A DNA stretch of 57,138 nucleotides from Vulcanimicrobiota bacterium (GCA_027422105.1 DAIBFU010000001.1:1-57138); one strand, 5' to 3'. Shown: positions 2,440 to 4,776, numbered from the stretch's first letter. A program made the numbers and translations. Notes: generated by a model not told the origin, from the sequence alone.

Positions 2440-3687
2440 TCAGGGCCTTGTCGCCTCGATACGCATCGAGATCGTCGGCGGGATGCGGCGTTCCGCTGCG
2501 AGTCGGCGGCGCCCCACGCCGGTAATATGGAGAGCGATATGCGCATCGCGCGGGATCGCGCCGCGCTCGAGGCGCTCGATCAATCCGGCGAGTGCGACCG
2601 CTGCCGCGGGATCGAGATCGACCCCTTCGAGCTCCTCGAAGAGCGCAGCGGCGGCACGGGCGGCGGCGTTTTCGACGGCGGTCACATCGCCCGCGCTCTC
2701 GGTGAGCGCGTCGAGTAATCCGCCTTTGGGTTCGTAGGGCGGCGCGAGCGATCCGAGGACCGCCGCCGACATCTCCGCACCGGCAAGAAAAGCCGAGTCG
2801 GGGCGGTGCGCCGCTTCGACCGAGTTGCTCCCCGCGGCCCAGGCGTGGAAGATCGGCGCGAAGGGCGCGTTCTGCACGAGTACGAGGTGTGGAAAGCGCG
2901 TTCCAAAGGCTCCCGATGCAATCGCGCGGCTTGCCGCTTCGTGCGCCGCGATCCCACCGCTTCCGCTGCCGACCGCTTGAACGAAATACTCCGGTAGCGC
3001 ACCCTCTGCTTCCATGTATGCCGCAATCGTGGTTCCGATACCGTCGCGTCGCGCGACGTTCTGCGCGCCGCCTTCAAAGACGTGCCCCTCACGCGTTCCG
3101 AGTTTGCGAGCCGCAACGATCGCATCGTCGTAGATGGCGTTGCCGGTCACGACGATAAAGCGAACGTTCTCCCCCGGAGCACGCGAGAAAACGATGCGCG
3201 GTAGCGCTGATTCGGGAACGATAATAATCGTCGGCACTTCGTAGATACTCGCCGCGCTTGCCAGCGCTACCGCCGTGTTTCCCGCAGATGCCGCAACGAG
3301 CGTGCGCCCGTCGCGCGGGAAGCGGCCGAGAATCGCGATCGCTTCGATATCCTTGAAGGTTCCGCTCGGGAGCCCTGCGCCGCGCTCGGGCCAGAATCCA
3401 TTGACGGCGAGGCGGAGGTTCGGAGCGCGAAGATAGGCATTGAGTGTGTCGCTGCGCAGAATGACGGTGCCGAAATCGGTTTCGACCGGCTCGCGCAGCG
3501 GTAGCCACGCGCGATAGCGGAGCATTCCGTGCCTCGATCGATCGATTTGGAAATTGCGCTCGGCGTACTCCGTGCGAAGAAGGCTCCGCCCGTGCTCCCC
3601 CGAGCAATGCGTTATGGTTCCGTCGTCGATAATGCGACGCCCGCATGTCGGACAGAGCAATCGGTACGACGATTTTTCAAAAACCAT
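2440..3687 (-). CDS. fold-type II PLP-dependent enzyme, threonine synthase-like / cysteate synthase-like, with N-terminal zinc-ribbon
   Basis: Start trimmed to the internal ATG at 3687 (MVFEKSSYRLLCPTCGRRIIDDGTITHCSGEH). Supporting motifs are the Lys motif GTFKDIEA, SAGNTAVALASAA and the glycine loop GSGSGGIA. The upstream 69 codons of the tracked ORF are R/P-rich and look non-coding. Confidence 0.7.
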   Translation of the reverse strand: MVFEKSSYRLLCPTCGRRIIDDGTITHCSGEHGRSLLRTEYAERNFQIDRSRHGMLRYRAWLPLREPVETDFGTVILRSDTLNAYLRAPNLRLAVNGFWPERGAGLPSGTFKDIEAIAILGRFPRDGRTLVAASAGNTAVALASAASIYEVPTIIIVPESALPRIVFSRAPGENVRFIVVTGNAIYDDAIVAARKLGTREGHVFEGGAQNVARRDGIGTTIAAYMEAEGALPEYFVQAVGSGSGGIAAHEAASRAIASGAFGTRFPHLVLVQNAPFAPIFHAWAAGSNSVEAAHRPDSAFLAGAEMSAAVLGSLAPPYEPKGGLLDALTESAGDVTAVENAAARAAAALFEELEGVDLDPAAAVALAGLIERLERGAIPRDAHIALHITGVGRRRLAAERRIPPTISMRIEATRP

Positions 3688-3920
3688 TGCGAACCCCGAC
3701 TTACGATTGAGAACGCGTCGAAGAGCAGTAGTTCGTGCCGGGAACCGGGCTCGGCGGGTGGGTTGAAAGGAGCGCGCAATGCATGACCAATTGATGAACG
3801 GTTTTCTTTTCGGAATCCTCTTTGCCGACGGGATTTCGAGCCTTGTCGACGCGGGCGCTTCTTCTCGGTGAGGTGTGGGCGGTGCGTATCTCACCCCGCG
3901 CCGTGCTTCGCCGAGAGTAC

Positions 3921-3966
3921 CTCGGCCATACGCGGCGGAGCCGCCGTTCTACCGCGTATGGCCGAG
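3921..3966. repeat. perfect 15-bp inverted repeat (hairpin) between the oxidase and PLP genes
   Basis: CTCGGCCATACGCGG (3921-3935) and CCGCGTATGGCCGAG (3952-3966) flank a 16-nt loop. There is no U-tract on either strand. It contains the 15-mer ATACGCGGCGGAGCC, which is also found in repeat copy 2 at 41984-41998. Confidence 0.8.
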
Positions 3967-3996
3967 AAGCGAGCGAGCTAGGCCCGTTGCAGAGCG

Positions 3997-4776
3997 TTAG
4001 ACCGCATAGCGAAGCCGCTCGTTCTCGAGCTCGCGGCGCTGCGCGGCGAGCCCATTCCAGAAGATCGTAACGGCATCGAGCATCGCGATCCCGCCGGCGA
4101 TGAAGCGTTCGGGAATGAAACAGCTACGCGAATAGGCGACACTGAGTTCGTCCTCCGTGTGTTGCGCGTGCAACTCTTCGAGTCGGTCGTGCCAGGTCCA
4201 AAAACCGAGTGGGAGGTCGGGGCGGCGCTGCGCGCGGATCTTGCGTAGCCCGGCGATCAGCGATTTCCAGAACCCGGCGTTCGCCCAATGTTCGATGGCG
4301 TACGAGGCTCCTAGCGCCGTCGAGATATCTTCCGATCCGTACCATTCGGTGAGCGAATCGCAGAAGCGCAAGGTACTCGGTGTACCCAAACGTCGCTTGC
4401 CGAGCTCGTGCCATTCCAATCCGAGGTGTTCGGCGAAATCGACGAGCCATTCATAGTGCGCGCCGTGGAAACGAAAGGTTCCGCCGTCGACCGATCCGTC
4501 GCTACCGAAGCTCACACCCAGTTCGTTCATCAAAATTTGCTTTCCCGAACGATAGGTACCGATATCGGGGGCATTGATGCATTTGCGCAGCTGTGCTTCG
4601 ATAAACAGATGGCTGAAGACGGAGAACTGTACGGTAAACGCGCGCAGTTGTGCGTCGGTTGCCTCGCCGAGCGCAAACCATTGCGTGTAGGGATTCTCCA
4701 ACAAGACGGCATGGCCGTGGATGCTGCGTTCGACTTCGTTACGGAAGCATTCGATCGGGGGAAGGGTTCTCATCAT
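3997..4776 (-). CDS. heme-oxygenase-like diiron oxidase/oxygenase family protein (iron-containing redox enzyme family)
   Basis: The sequence is helix-rich with Glu/His-bearing segments: FSHLFIEAQL, NELGVSF, HGAHYEWL, YAIEHWANAG, WHDRLEELHAQH. The ATG at 4776 has a GAGGA Shine-Dalgarno 5 nt upstream. The track start at 4791 is TTG. Confidence 0.6.
   Translation of the reverse strand: MMRTLPPIECFRNEVERSIHGHAVLLENPYTQWFALGEATDAQLRAFTVQFSVFSHLFIEAQLRKCINAPDIGTYRSGKQILMNELGVSFGSDGSVDGGTFRFHGAHYEWLVDFAEHLGLEWHELGKRRLGTPSTLRFCDSLTEWYGSEDISTALGASYAIEHWANAGFWKSLIAGLRKIRAQRRPDLPLGFWTWHDRLEELHAQHTEDELSVAYSRSCFIPERFIAGGIAMLDAVTIFWNGLAAQRRELENERLRYAV

What the first reader, a model, noticed from the sequence alone, without database searches (positions are those of the whole stretch)
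2440..4776. Heme-oxygenase-like diiron oxidase next to a zinc-ribbon threonine-synthase-like PLP enzyme: candidate orphan amino-acid-tailoring cassette
- Two same-strand genes sit in an otherwise housekeeping neighbourhood.
- The first is a ~259-aa helix-rich protein with Glu/His-bearing helices (FIEAQL, NELG, HYEW, AIEHW, HDRLEELHAQH). This pattern is typical of the HDO / iron-containing redox enzyme family, the class that includes SznF, BesC, UndA and CADD.
- The second is a fold-type II PLP enzyme with a TFKD lysine motif and an N-terminal CPTC...HC zinc ribbon, as seen in cysteate-synthase-like relatives of threonine synthase.
- HDO plus PLP-enzyme partnerships are established in non-canonical amino-acid pathways such as Bes and Paz.
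- That this pair makes or modifies an amino-acid-derived small molecule is inference. I recognise no known pathway with exactly this pair.
Basis: partly seen in the sequence, partly recalled or inferred. Interest (0 to 1): 0.7.

Follow-up and report, generated by a model that had tools for sequence, protein, structure and literature searches.

The report
Tyrosine-sensing leader controls orphan diiron oxygenase
The two genes are real but are not a team. The iron-oxygenase-like gene is a self-contained unit switched by a previously undescribed tyrosine-sensing RNA leader, and it probably belongs to tyrosine/phenylalanine metabolism; the neighbouring enzyme is an unrelated cysteate synthase.

Summary
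One is a heme-oxygenase-like dimetal oxygenase (HDO) with a complete 3-His/3-carboxylate site. The other is a cysteate-synthase-family PLP enzyme with a conserved N-terminal Cys3His motif.

The PLP gene lies near the HDO only in the closest (~90% identical) relatives, 8 of 80 loci. In most of those relatives where it was checked, an opposite-strand cytochrome c gene separates the two. A remnant of that gene survives in the window.

What always travels with the HDO is the "upstream small ORF". It is a 128-148 nt unit made of:
- an extended -10 promoter;
- a near-leaderless mini-ORF with a run of 3-6 Tyr codons;
- covarying hairpins and an alternative antiterminator pairing;
- an intrinsic terminator just before the HDO start.

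The unit occurs in 100 of 100 loci searched, across Eremiobacterota and Melainabacteria. It matches no Rfam family. I read it as a trpL-like, tyrosine-responsive attenuator.

A sister clade (43% identity) sits beside the homogentisate pathway in three Gammaproteobacteria.

My best inference, untested, is that the HDO supplies tyrosine, most likely by hydroxylating phenylalanine.

The parts
3997..4776 (-). HDO-like dimetal oxygenase gene (259 aa). Predicted ligands are E85, H107, E162, H196, E200 and H203.
   Evidence: The ORF and Shine-Dalgarno sequence are seen. AlphaFold2 gives pLDDT 88.5, and the best fold matches are CADD, BesC and PqqC. The ligand residues are invariant or nearly so in alignment A2. 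HHalign to CADD gives 96.9% probability. The family has 2616 homologues.
4805..4950 (-). Leader unit of the HDO gene, running from the mini-ORF ATG to the end of the terminator U-tract. It is a candidate Tyr-responsive transcription attenuator.
   Evidence: The stretch is about 99% identical among 10 relatives whose HDO protein is only ~90% identical. The covariance model scores 69.1 bits, E 8e-14, here, and this is the only copy in the window. No Rfam family matches.
4864..4950 (-). Mini-ORF of 28 codons, MFAPAYLFGSYQYRSASESVEPPIPVEP. This is the window lineage's degenerate version of the Tyr-run leader peptide; most relatives have xxAYYYYGRxx.
   Evidence: Across the loci, Tyr makes up 18% of mini-ORF residues. 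TAT is 61% of Tyr codons in the leader against 36% in the HDO coding sequence.
4812..4843 (-). Intrinsic terminator hairpin (13 bp, 10 G-C pairs) followed by UUUCUUUU. It ends about 30 nt before the HDO ATG.
   Evidence: Found by the terminator scan. Across the leaders it is 99.7% paired, and 8 of 11 pairs show compensatory changes.
4958..4986 (-). Promoter-like element: TTGTTT, 17 nt, TGcTAAGGT (extended -10). It ends 7 nt before the mini-ORF ATG, which implies a near-leaderless transcript.
   Evidence: Read directly from the sequence. Across the loci, a TANNNT -10 hexamer is present in 64 of 67, is TGn-extended in 61, and ends mostly 7-10 nt before the ATG. The consensus promoter scan found nothing here, so this part is inferred.
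2440..3687 (-). Cysteate-synthase-family PLP enzyme gene (415 aa). It is an independent gene and not part of the HDO unit.
   Evidence: TIGR03844 scores 374.7, above its cutoff of 324.9. PDB 9k3c matches at E 3e-72. K112, C12, C15 and C28 are invariant in A6. It is adjacent to the HDO in only 8 of 80 loci.
3791..3917 (+). Remnant (about the N-terminal 56 codons) of a cytochrome c gene, lying between the HDO and PLP genes on the opposite strand.
   Evidence: tblastn with the intact L003 gene matches residues 1-18 and 37-56 here. The intact gene sits between the HDO and PLP genes in L002, L003, L005 and L006, and follows the HDO in L010.

Best explanation
The region holds two unrelated transcription units.

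**(1) The HDO gene is a monocistronic module.** In order, it has:
- its own extended -10 promoter;
- a near-leaderless mini-ORF rich in Tyr codons;
- an RNA that can adopt two mutually exclusive folds;
- an intrinsic terminator directly before the HDO ribosome-binding site.

The proposed mechanism follows trpL and pheL.
- When Tyr-tRNA is plentiful, or the mini-ORF is not translated, the 5' half of the leader pairs with its 3' half. The terminator then forms and transcription stops.
- When Tyr-tRNA is scarce, the ribosome stalls on the Tyr run and frees the segment UCGGC..GGU..GC..UUGC. That segment pairs with the 5' arm of the terminator as an antiterminator, and the HDO gene is transcribed.

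The HDO is therefore made under tyrosine shortage. It is a dimetal, O2-activating enzyme of the CADD/BesC/UndA fold. A sister clade lies next to, or inside, the homogentisate (Phe/Tyr catabolic) operon in Gammaproteobacteria. The function that fits both settings is para-hydroxylation of phenylalanine (or phenylpyruvate) to tyrosine (or 4-hydroxyphenylpyruvate), as a pterin-independent counterpart of phenylalanine hydroxylase.

**(2) The PLP gene is a stand-alone cysteate synthase** (O-phosphoserine + sulfite gives L-cysteate). It arrived next to the HDO only in this genus-level lineage.

**Shown:** gene identities, the lack of co-conservation, the universal leader-HDO linkage, the terminator, and covariation in the 'off' fold.

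**Inferred:** the direction of regulation, translation of the mini-ORF, the metal content, and the substrate.

**My estimated probabilities**
- The pair are independent units: about 0.9.
- The leader is a Tyr-responsive attenuator: about 0.75.
- The HDO acts in Tyr/Phe metabolism: about 0.6.
- The reaction is specifically Phe (or phenylpyruvate) 4-hydroxylation: about 0.3.
For: **Independence of the two genes**
- The PLP gene is adjacent in 8 of 80 loci only.
- An opposite-strand cytochrome c gene lies between the two in four of those close relatives, and a remnant lies in the window.
- Cysteate synthase homologues are scattered in the other Eremiobacterota examined.

**Leader-HDO linkage**
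- The Tyr-run mini-ORF plus terminator was found in 74 of 80 genome loci despite at least five different gene neighbourhoods.
- The covariance model adds L030 and L041. That leaves only two truncated contigs and two group II intron insertions without it.
- The model finds exactly one copy in each of 100 sources and none elsewhere in 1.03 Mb. nhmmer gives the same result over 1.45 Mb.
- In a metagenome pattern scan, all 30 genuine leaders with room downstream are followed by the HDO.

**Selection acts on codons in the Tyr run**
- TAT/TAC changes are synonymous, and the run varies in length by whole codons from 3 to 6.
- Tyr is 18% of mini-ORF residues, and TAT is enriched (61% against 36%).

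**Selection acts on RNA, not peptide, elsewhere**
- L013 and L028 differ by a 1-nt indel. This changes the C-terminal peptide, yet the nucleotides stay conserved.
- The conserved CGGCTAG is an in-frame stop in some lineages and is read through in others.

**RNA structures**
- Terminator: 99.7% paired, with 8 of 11 pairs compensatory.
- 'Off' fold: 76-80% of cells paired against 33-44% when partners are slid; 28-29 pairs show double changes; 0 of 500 shuffles reach the observed covariation score or paired fraction.
- Antiterminator: 77% paired against 27-50% slid; 46-54 double-change cells against 17-22 expected; 0 of 500.
- With a ribosome footprint placed at the last Tyr codon, the terminator's 5' arm pairs upstream (median z -2.5).

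**Enzyme**
- Fold and ligand evidence.
- A cytochrome b5 fusion and a CDGSH Fe-S gene just downstream in Alkalimarinus fit a need for electron delivery.

**Tyrosine link from an independent clade**
- The HDO homologue lies beside hppD-hmgA-fahA-maiA in Alkalimarinus coralli and Moritella viscosa (convergent orientation).
- In Methylocaldum it is on the same strand: hppD-hmgA-fahA-maiA-HDO-acetoacetate-CoA ligase, with gaps of 72 and 48 nt.
- A HisC-family aminotransferase is divergent from another homologue.
Against: - No experiment exists, and no cultured host was examined.
- Support for the antiterminator rests mostly on conservation. The count of pairs with compensatory change does not exceed shuffles (104-180 of 500).
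- The window's own leader has only three scattered Tyr codons (Y6, Y11, Y13). Its Tyr specificity may therefore be weakened in this lineage.
- Aromatic hydroxylation has not been described for the HDO fold (my own knowledge).
- The gammaproteobacterial clade is only 43% identical and lacks the leader, so its function may differ.
- I could not test whether genomes carrying the HDO lack TyrA or PhhA.
- Only three gammaproteobacterial contexts were inspected. Two other homologue contexts were uninformative or only suggestive.
- Some Eremiobacterota loci place the HDO near Met-pathway genes, an OCD-family gene or a CADD paralogue. I treat these as coincidental, but they are unexplained.
Confidence: 0.55

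Rival explanations
1. The HDO and the PLP enzyme form a two-gene cassette that makes or tailors a non-canonical amino acid. For example, cysteate or another beta-substituted product of the PLP enzyme could be oxidised by the HDO, as in the Bes or Paz pathways.
For: The genes are on the same strand and only 309 nt apart. Both act plausibly on amino acids. Adjacency holds in all 8 closest relatives that have enough flank.
Against: The PLP gene is absent within 6 kb in the 70 more distant HDO loci. An opposite-strand cytochrome c gene separates the pair in close relatives, and a remnant lies in the window. The HDO has its own promoter, leader and terminator, which stay with it in every context. 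The cysteate synthase stands alone elsewhere.
Confidence: 0.04
2. The mini-ORF is not a regulator. Instead it is a Tyr-rich precursor or sacrificial peptide that the HDO modifies or cleaves. Parallels are PqqA with PqqC, the self-sacrificed Tyr of CADD, and the biarylitide MRYYH with its P450. On this view the hairpin only sets the ratio of peptide to enzyme.
For: The small ORF and the enzyme are strictly co-inherited. The Tyr run is the conserved coding feature. The nearest solved fold, CADD, is named '4-aminobenzoate synthase' in PDB entries 8va9 and 9pj4; that it cleaves one of its own tyrosines to do so is my own knowledge. A terminator after a precursor gene is common in RiPP operons (my own knowledge).
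Against: Peptide sequence outside the Tyr run is not conserved. A 1-nt frameshift is tolerated while the nucleotides stay fixed. The stop codon falls in different places relative to conserved nucleotides. The 5' and 3' halves of the ORF region covary as RNA helices. An alternative pairing that sequesters the terminator arm is conserved. No protease, transporter or recognition domain travels with the pair. The window lineage has lost the contiguous Tyr run yet keeps the RNA architecture.
Confidence: 0.12
3. The leader is a Tyr attenuator as proposed, but the HDO replaces TyrA. It would carry out an O2-dependent oxidative decarboxylation of arogenate or prephenate to tyrosine or 4-hydroxyphenylpyruvate, which is UndA/BesC-like chemistry.
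For: Induction by Tyr starvation fits a biosynthetic enzyme. UndA and BesC are among the fold matches, and they catalyse oxidative decarboxylation or C-C fragmentation (my own knowledge). The product 4-hydroxyphenylpyruvate is the substrate of HppD, which is encoded next to the gammaproteobacterial homologues.
Against: A step that consumes prephenate makes little sense inside a catabolic hppD-hmgA-fahA-maiA-acetoacetate-CoA ligase operon. No chorismate mutase or other aro genes were seen next to any homologue.
Confidence: 0.15
4. The HDO acts on tyrosine itself or on another aromatic compound. Examples are Tyr to 4-hydroxyphenylpyruvate, or formation of a Tyr-derived cofactor. On this view the leader senses something other than Tyr-tRNA supply, such as a tRNA-Tyr modification, general translation status or a small-molecule ligand.
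For: The homogentisate clusters lack an obvious Tyr-to-HPP step in the 14-kb views. Enrichment of U-ending Tyr codons could also report queuosine status (my own knowledge).
Against: The stalled-ribosome geometry predicts induction when Tyr decoding is slow. That is paradoxical for an enzyme that consumes Tyr. No Rfam riboswitch matches. Conservation at the codon level implies that translation matters.
Confidence: 0.1

Closest known systems
CADD (Chlamydia CT610; Fe/Mn 4-aminobenzoate synthase) and the wider heme-oxygenase-like dimetal oxygenase/oxidase (HDO) superfamily (BesC, UndA, SznF, FlcD, HrmI, PolF)
   Same: It has the seven-helix heme-oxygenase-like fold, with TM 0.68/0.81 to CADD. The H-x3-E-x2-H motif, a Glu and a His align with CADD ligands. 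A fusion protein and a neighbouring gene suggest a need for external electrons.
   Different: Identity to any solved member is only 14-20%. It scores below the cutoffs of PF14518, TIGR04305 and the BesC model. A ~20-residue insertion lies between the first Glu and His ligands. A genuine CADD-type pABA synthase paralogue is encoded separately in some of the same genomes, so this protein is not that enzyme. The proposed reaction, aromatic hydroxylation, is not known for the fold.
Leader-peptide transcription attenuators (trpL, pheL, hisL, leuL) and leaderless polycysteine attenuators of mycobacteria
   Same: It has a short ORF with a run of codons for one amino acid and an intrinsic terminator before the structural gene. 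It also has mutually exclusive 1:2, 2:3 and 3:4 pairings. The ORF is near-leaderless.
   Different: The regulatory codons encode tyrosine, and no Rfam leader family matches. My literature searches found no Tyr-codon leader-peptide attenuator. It controls a single orphan oxygenase gene rather than a biosynthetic operon. It occurs in Eremiobacterota and Melainabacteria.
Pterin-dependent phenylalanine 4-hydroxylase (PhhA/PAH)
   Same: The proposed reaction is the same (Phe to Tyr). So is the physiological setting: it would feed the homogentisate pathway and supply tyrosine (plus my own knowledge of phh/hmg clusters).
   Different: There is no sequence or fold relationship. The site would be dimetal rather than mononuclear iron, and no pterin-recycling gene is nearby. 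The activity itself is untested.
Cysteate synthase (TIGR03844; PDB 9k3c), for the PLP gene
   Same: It scores above the curated cutoff and aligns over the full length with the solved enzyme. The PLP lysine motif is present.
   Different: The bacterial homologues carry a conserved N-terminal C-x2-C...C-x3-H motif that 9k3c lacks in the alignment. No coenzyme M or sulfonolipid genes lie nearby. Its physiological role in Eremiobacterota is unknown.

Membership tests
Heme-oxygenase-like dimetal oxygenase (HDO) superfamily | All-helical heme-oxygenase-like fold | tested here: met
   The AlphaFold2 model has pLDDT 88.5. Foldseek to PDB gives CADD, BesC, PqqC, FlcD, HrmI and UndA, with E down to 1e-6 and TM up to 0.81.
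Heme-oxygenase-like dimetal oxygenase (HDO) superfamily | Three His plus three carboxylate metal ligands on the core helices | tested here: met
   E85, H107, H196, E200 and H203 are invariant and E162 is at least 90% conserved in A2. Five of the six align exactly with CADD ligands. The sixth is offset by one helical turn, next to an insertion.
Heme-oxygenase-like dimetal oxygenase (HDO) superfamily | Pfam PF14518 (Haem_oxygenas_2) at the gathering score | tested here: not met
   It scores 22.4 bits against 28.9. Some relatives carry a precomputed PF14518 hit.
Heme-oxygenase-like dimetal oxygenase (HDO) superfamily | Binds two metal ions and activates O2 | not testable with these tools
   This needs metal analysis and spectroscopy of purified protein.
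CADD-type 4-aminobenzoate synthase (TIGR04305) | Model score at or above the curated cutoff | tested here: not met
   It scores 20.8 bits against 200. A true CADD paralogue (E 6e-99 to 9pj4) is a separate gene in some of the same genomes.
   The ligand set is present and conserved. The 'PqqC' names in JGI records are automatic labels.
Cysteate synthase (TIGR03844) | Equivalog model score at or above the cutoff | tested here: met
   It scores 374.7 against 324.9.
Cysteate synthase (TIGR03844) | Fold-type II PLP enzyme with a catalytic Lys in the (S/T)FK motif | tested here: met
   PF00291 matches at E 8e-33. K112 is invariant. It aligns with 9k3c over residues 3-399.
Cysteate synthase (TIGR03844) | Converts O-phosphoserine plus sulfite to cysteate | not testable with these tools
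   An enzyme assay is needed.
Threonine synthase (TIGR00260) | Model score at or above the cutoff | tested here: not met
   It scores 47.9 against 167.1. Whether the genome has another thrC could not be checked.
Leader-peptide transcription attenuator | Short upstream ORF with a run of codons for one amino acid | tested here: met
   There are 3-6 Tyr codons in 19-28 codon ORFs in 74 of 80 loci. The window's own copy is degenerate, with 3 Tyr codons among 8.
Leader-peptide transcription attenuator | Intrinsic terminator between the leader ORF and the structural gene | tested here: met
   It is an 11-13 bp G+C-rich stem plus a U-tract. It is 99.7% paired, and 8 of 11 pairs are compensatory.
Leader-peptide transcription attenuator | Mutually exclusive antiterminator, favoured when the ribosome stalls at the regulatory codons | tested here: inconclusive
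   It is 77% paired against 27-50% in slid controls, and double-change cells exceed shuffles (0 of 500). The number of covarying pairs does not exceed shuffles. Folding with a masked footprint supports the model (median z -2.5).
Leader-peptide transcription attenuator | Translation of the leader ORF and Tyr-dependent read-through | not testable with these tools
   This needs reporter or in vitro transcription-translation assays.
Known Rfam leader or riboswitch families | Match to any Rfam 15 model | tested here: not met
   There is no gathering-score hit in the window. Nothing meaningful appears at E up to 10 in the leader. Nothing appears in four other leader-bearing loci at E up to 0.1.
HDO-plus-PLP biosynthetic cassette (Bes/Paz-like) | Co-conservation and co-transcription of the two genes | tested here: not met
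   The genes are adjacent in only 8 of 80 loci. An opposite-strand gene lies between them in close relatives.

The most novel reading that the evidence does not exclude
This HDO family is a previously unrecognised, pterin-independent dimetal phenylalanine (or phenylpyruvate) 4-hydroxylase, which would be a new enzymatic route to tyrosine. In Eremiobacterota and Melainabacteria it would be switched on by the first described tyrosine-codon leader-peptide attenuator. In Gammaproteobacteria it would be recruited to feed the homogentisate pathway.
Probability: 0.3. Interest if true: 0.85.

Novelty: new variant of a known kind. Interest (0 to 1): 0.72.

Why it matters
The HDO fold is a fast-growing source of unusual oxidative chemistry, yet most of its families have no known substrate. 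Here an uncharacterised family carries two independent pointers to its substrate. It has thousands of members, including homologues named from Moritella viscosa, Alkalimarinus coralli and Methylocaldum, which are potential experimental hosts.

The first pointer is a regulatory RNA that appears to read tyrosine availability. The second is placement beside or inside the Phe/Tyr catabolic operon. Together they turn 'function unknown' into a short list of assays.

If the enzyme makes tyrosine, three things follow:
- Pathway-gap predictions for two poorly known phyla would need revising.
- Aromatic hydroxylation would be added to HDO chemistry.
- A cofactor-light alternative to pterin-dependent phenylalanine hydroxylase would become available.

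The leader itself would extend classical ribosome-mediated attenuation to tyrosine and to candidate phyla where almost no regulation is known.

The case also shows that adjacency in one lineage, here HDO next to a PLP enzyme, can mislead.

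Tried and rejected
1. **HDO as the missing urate oxidase.**
   - In 7-8 Obscuribacteraceae loci the HDO follows an allantoinase-like / allantoicase / OHCU decarboxylase / HIU hydrolase-like / DUF6986 operon.
   - I rejected this as the general function. 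Those loci are one closely related lineage. The HDO there has its own promoter and leader about 170 nt upstream. No other clade shows the context.

2. **HDO as a CADD-type pABA synthase.**
   - It scores far below the cutoff.
   - Genuine CADD paralogues and PabB/PabC exist in related genomes.

3. **A conserved protein-coding partner.**
   - I clustered neighbours across 80 loci. Only lineage-specific neighbours emerged: DUF4010/SerRS/MoeA; FA hydroxylase/Crp/cytochrome c/GST; OCD; HSD/Cys-Met PLP enzyme; and secreted proteins.
   - A first single-linkage clustering was polluted by Arg-rich shadow ORFs.

4. **The leader upstream of other genes.**
   - The metagenome pattern scan gave 16 loci without a detectable HDO. 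Fourteen are chance matches inside coding sequence. One (L124) is a genuine leader cut off by the contig end, and one (L104) has no room downstream.
   - nhmmer and covariance-model searches found no extra copies.

5. **A Tyr leader upstream of distant homologues.** None was found in L137, L139 or L141.

6. **PDB profile search with the narrow alignment A1.** It found nothing useful. A1 against CADD by HHalign was weak, so the broader A2 was needed.

7. **Literature.** Nothing links the HDO fold to urate oxidase, homogentisate, tyrosine biosynthesis or pterin-independent Phe hydroxylation. Nothing mentions DUF6986.

8. **TyrA or PhhA in the same genomes.** Presence or absence could not be tested, because no whole-genome access remained.

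Full report
**What is at the coordinates.**
Two minus-strand genes occupy 2440..4776.
- The upstream gene, 3997..4776, encodes a 259-aa helical protein. It starts at ATG ATG behind a GAGGA Shine-Dalgarno sequence.
- The downstream gene encodes a 415-aa PLP enzyme starting at MVFEK (3687). The 484-aa ORF in the mechanical list is an upstream extension. One public gene call shortened the protein to 361 aa and lost the N-terminal motif.
- Surrounding genes are housekeeping: DEAD-box helicase, DUF4010 membrane protein, glutamate dehydrogenase, seryl-tRNA synthetase, MoeA, a HisC-like aminotransferase, FtsH, Rho, FolC/FolP and others.
- Close homologues are labelled Eremiobacterota/Vulcanimicrobiota (Baltobacteraceae).

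**The oxygenase.**
- Library models give only weak hits: PF14518 at 22.4 bits (gathering score 28.9), CADD TIGR04305 at 20.8 (cutoff 200), and BesC at 16 (cutoff 500).
- By sequence alone, the only PDB relative is a CADD-like protein of unknown function, 3b5o.
- The AlphaFold2 model is confident (pLDDT 88.5, pTM 0.84). Its best PDB matches are CADD, BesC, PqqC, FlcD, HrmI, PolF and UndA.
- In an alignment of 23 diverse relatives reaching 28% identity, only ten positions after the initiator Met are invariant. Five of them are E85, H107, H196, E200 and H203, and E162 is at least 90% conserved.
- HHalign against a small CADD alignment gives 96.9% probability. It puts H107, E162, H196, E200 and H203 on CADD ligands H88, E142, H174, D178 and H181. 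E85 sits three residues from E81, beside a ~20-residue low-confidence insertion.
- The protein is therefore an HDO-type enzyme with a full ligand set, not a ligand-less TenA/PqqC protein.
- One relative is fused to cytochrome b5.

**The PLP enzyme.**
- It is a cysteate-synthase-family member: TIGR03844 scores 374.7 against a cutoff of 324.9, thrC scores 47.9 against 167, and PDB 9k3c 'cysteate synthase' matches at E 3e-72.
- The PLP lysine K112 and a C12/C15/C28(/H32) motif are conserved in bacterial homologues.

**Are they a cassette? No.**
- A scan of one genome per GTDB species found 233 genomes encoding the oxygenase, and 80 loci were retrieved.
- The PLP gene lies within 6 kb in only 8 of these. 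All 8 belong to the ~90%-identity group, and none of the 70 more distant loci has it.
- In those 8 the gap between the genes is 511-692 nt. An intact cytochrome c gene on the opposite strand fills it in L002, L003, L005 and L006. It also follows the HDO in L010, whose contig ends before the PLP position.
- In the window most of that gene has been deleted. About its first 56 codons survive at 3791..3917 on the + strand.
- In three other Eremiobacterota contexts the cysteate synthase homologue (49-55% identity) sits alone in unrelated surroundings. In one genome it is on the same 255-kb contig as the oxygenase but far from it.

**What does travel with the oxygenase.**
- Protein-coding neighbours differ between lineages.
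- The ~200 nt just upstream of the gene are about 99% identical among ten relatives whose coding DNA is only ~75-78% identical.
- A similar element is found upstream of the gene in essentially every locus, in both Eremiobacterota and Melainabacteria.
- The unit is 128-148 nt long and has these parts:
  - a TGn-extended -10 box, present in 61-64 of 67 loci, ending mostly 7-10 nt before an ATG, so the transcript is nearly leaderless;
  - a mini-ORF of 19-28 codons with a run of 3-6 tyrosine codons, for example MFAVIAKAYYYYGRSESRQGTLLL or, in Melainabacteria, MTAKNAYSYYYYTYSLGVG;
  - two hairpins;
  - a G+C-rich terminator hairpin with a U-tract, ending 5-49 nt before the oxygenase start codon (about 170 nt in Obscuribacteraceae).
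- A covariance model finds exactly one copy in each of 100 sources and nothing else in 1.03 Mb. nhmmer finds no extra copy in 1.45 Mb, including the whole window.
- In a metagenome scan with a leader pattern, all 30 genuine leaders with room downstream precede the oxygenase. Of the 16 loci without a detectable oxygenase, 14 are chance matches inside coding sequence, one (L124) is a genuine leader cut off by the contig end, and one (L104) has no room downstream.
- The only oxygenase loci without the leader are two truncated contigs and two with a group II intron inserted upstream.
- No Rfam family matches.

**Regulator or precursor peptide?**
- In the Tyr run, selection acts on codons. TAT/TAC substitutions are synonymous and length changes come in whole codons. 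Tyr is 18% of mini-ORF residues. The rarer TAT codon makes up 61% of leader Tyr codons against 36% in the oxygenase gene of the same GC-rich genomes.
- Outside the run, selection acts on RNA. L013 and L028 differ by a 1-nt indel that replaces the C-terminal peptide, yet the nucleotides remain conserved. The conserved CGGCUAG is an in-frame stop in some lineages and is read through in others.
- The 5' half of the unit (AUGUUCG..., then GCGUAC just before the Tyr run, then the 5' arm of hairpin A) pairs with the 3' half (...GUACGC...CGAACAU). On the MAFFT alignment, 76% of cells are paired against about 40% when partners are slid, and 29 of 38 pairs show changes on both sides. None of 500 shuffles reaches the observed covariation score or paired fraction.
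- On the model-based alignment of 100 leaders the figures are 80% paired, 28 of 37 pairs, and 260 double-change cells against 91 expected. The terminator itself is 99.7% paired.
- The segment UCGGC..GGU..GC..UUGC is complementary to GCAA..GC..GCC..GCCGA, which is the 5' arm and loop of the terminator. This alternative pairing holds in 77% of cells against 27-50% in controls, with more double-change cells than any shuffle. The number of covarying pairs is not above chance.
- One clear compensatory case is the window lineage itself, where C:G becomes U:A in the core helix.
- If a ribosome footprint is placed at the last Tyr codon and the 3' arm is not yet transcribed, the terminator's 5' arm pairs upstream (median z -2.5; 79% of leaders below -2).
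- This is the trpL/pheL logic. Slow decoding of Tyr codons frees segment 2, the antiterminator forms, and the gene is read.
- The precursor-peptide reading is not excluded, but it does not explain the frameshift tolerance or the alternative fold.

**What the enzyme may do.**
- The leader says the enzyme is wanted when tyrosine is short.
- A second, independent pointer comes from a sister clade: about 305 aa, 43% identical to the window protein, 4544 homologues, mostly Gammaproteobacteria, all labelled hypothetical.
- In Alkalimarinus coralli and Moritella viscosa the gene is convergent with hppD-hmgA-fahA-maiA.
- In Methylocaldum it lies on the same strand between maiA and an acetoacetate-CoA ligase, with gaps of 72 and 48 nt.
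- The neighbours were confirmed by curated models: 4HPPD at 412 (cutoff 277), maiA at 294 (cutoff 171), and acetoacetate-CoA ligase at 946 (cutoff 521).
- In Alkalimarinus a small CDGSH iron-sulfur protein gene follows directly. Another homologue is divergent from a HisC-family aminotransferase.
- The step that both feeds the homogentisate pathway and relieves tyrosine shortage is para-hydroxylation of phenylalanine (or phenylpyruvate). I put this first, at about 0.3.
- An O2-dependent TyrA substitute comes second. It would decarboxylate arogenate or prephenate oxidatively, in keeping with UndA/BesC chemistry. It fits the leader but fits poorly inside a catabolic operon.
- These are inferences. 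No tool here can test activity. I also could not census TyrA or PhhA in the carrier genomes.
- I found no literature connecting the fold with these pathways, and none describing a tyrosine-codon attenuator.

**Caveats.**
- The window's own leader is a divergent member. Its peptide, MFAPAYLFGSYQYRSASESVEPPIPVEP, has three separated Tyr codons. It still keeps the hairpins, the 13-bp terminator and the predicted antiterminator.
- The sequences are related, so shuffle controls overstate significance. The slid-partner controls are the fairer comparison.
- The gammaproteobacterial evidence rests on three genomes.
- Some Eremiobacterota contexts remain unexplained: an OCD-family gene overlapping the oxygenase 3' end, nearby homoserine dehydrogenase and a Cys/Met PLP enzyme, and a CADD paralogue.

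**Verdict.**
The 'cassette' is an accident of one lineage.
- The feature of real interest is the oxygenase's private, tyrosine-codon leader and what it implies for an orphan HDO family.

Noticed in passing
window 3791..3917 (+): An N-terminal remnant (residues 1-18 and 37-56) of a cytochrome c gene lies between the HDO and PLP genes. The gene is intact in close relatives such as L003 (6796..7362, minus strand). The window lineage has deleted most of it.
   Followed up: yes
window 3923..3964: A perfect 13-bp inverted repeat (CGGCCATACGCGG ... CCGCGTATGGCCG) lies just downstream of the HDO stop codon, with no U-tract. It may be a terminator or stabiliser shared with the former convergent cytochrome c gene. 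I read it by eye from the sequence.
   Followed up: no
L055 1615..1685 and 115..187; L070 33..105: Group II intron domains (RF00029, RF01998) lie immediately upstream of the HDO gene in two Melainabacteria/cyanobacterial MAG loci. They occupy the place where other loci carry the Tyr leader.
   Followed up: partly
L072 8808..9593 (-), and five other Candidatus Cybelea-type loci (cluster 29): A genuine CADD-type 4-aminobenzoate synthase paralogue (E 6e-99 to PDB 9pj4, 6e-52 to CT610) lies 2-3 kb from the HDO on the opposite strand. Other Eremiobacterota carry a PabB-PabC fusion instead (L088).
   Followed up: partly
L013 1841..2755; L019 6696..7670; also L021, L023, L024, L028: An ornithine cyclodeaminase/mu-crystallin family gene (Pfam 274 bits) starts at or overlaps the 3' end of the HDO gene in about 9-10 loci. 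It may be co-transcribed with the HDO. Its role is unexplained.
   Followed up: partly
L066 500..5511, and L033, L060, L063, L064, L068, L079: Obscuribacteraceae loci carry a same-strand purine/ureide operon: allantoinase-like amidohydrolase, allantoicase, OHCU decarboxylase, a 118-aa HIU-hydrolase-like protein ending in YRGS, and DUF6986. No urate oxidase appears in the 12-kb view. DUF6986 is uncharacterised and weakly resembles a malate-synthase TIM barrel.
   Followed up: partly
P0241 (391 aa) and P0262 (555 aa): Two fusion relatives of the HDO were found. One has an N-terminal cytochrome b5 domain. The other has an N-terminal SAM-methyltransferase domain, and in it three ligand positions are replaced (E162 to K, H196 to Q, H203 to R).
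   Followed up: partly
L137 5988..6227: A 79-aa zf-CDGSH iron-sulfur protein gene lies 60 nt downstream of the HDO homologue in Alkalimarinus coralli. It is a candidate electron donor.
   Followed up: no
window 2440..3687 (-), compared with L083 9252..10337: An automated gene call starts the cysteate synthase at Met55 (361 aa). This drops the conserved Cys3His N-terminal motif, although the longer form aligns with PDB 9k3c from residue 3.
   Followed up: yes
window 5023..6321 (+) and 6318..6659 (+): A DUF4010 membrane protein gene, followed by an overlapping 113-aa gene of unknown function, is divergent from the HDO unit. The pair is syntenic with the HDO in about 20 Baltobacteraceae-type loci but in no other clade.
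   Followed up: partly
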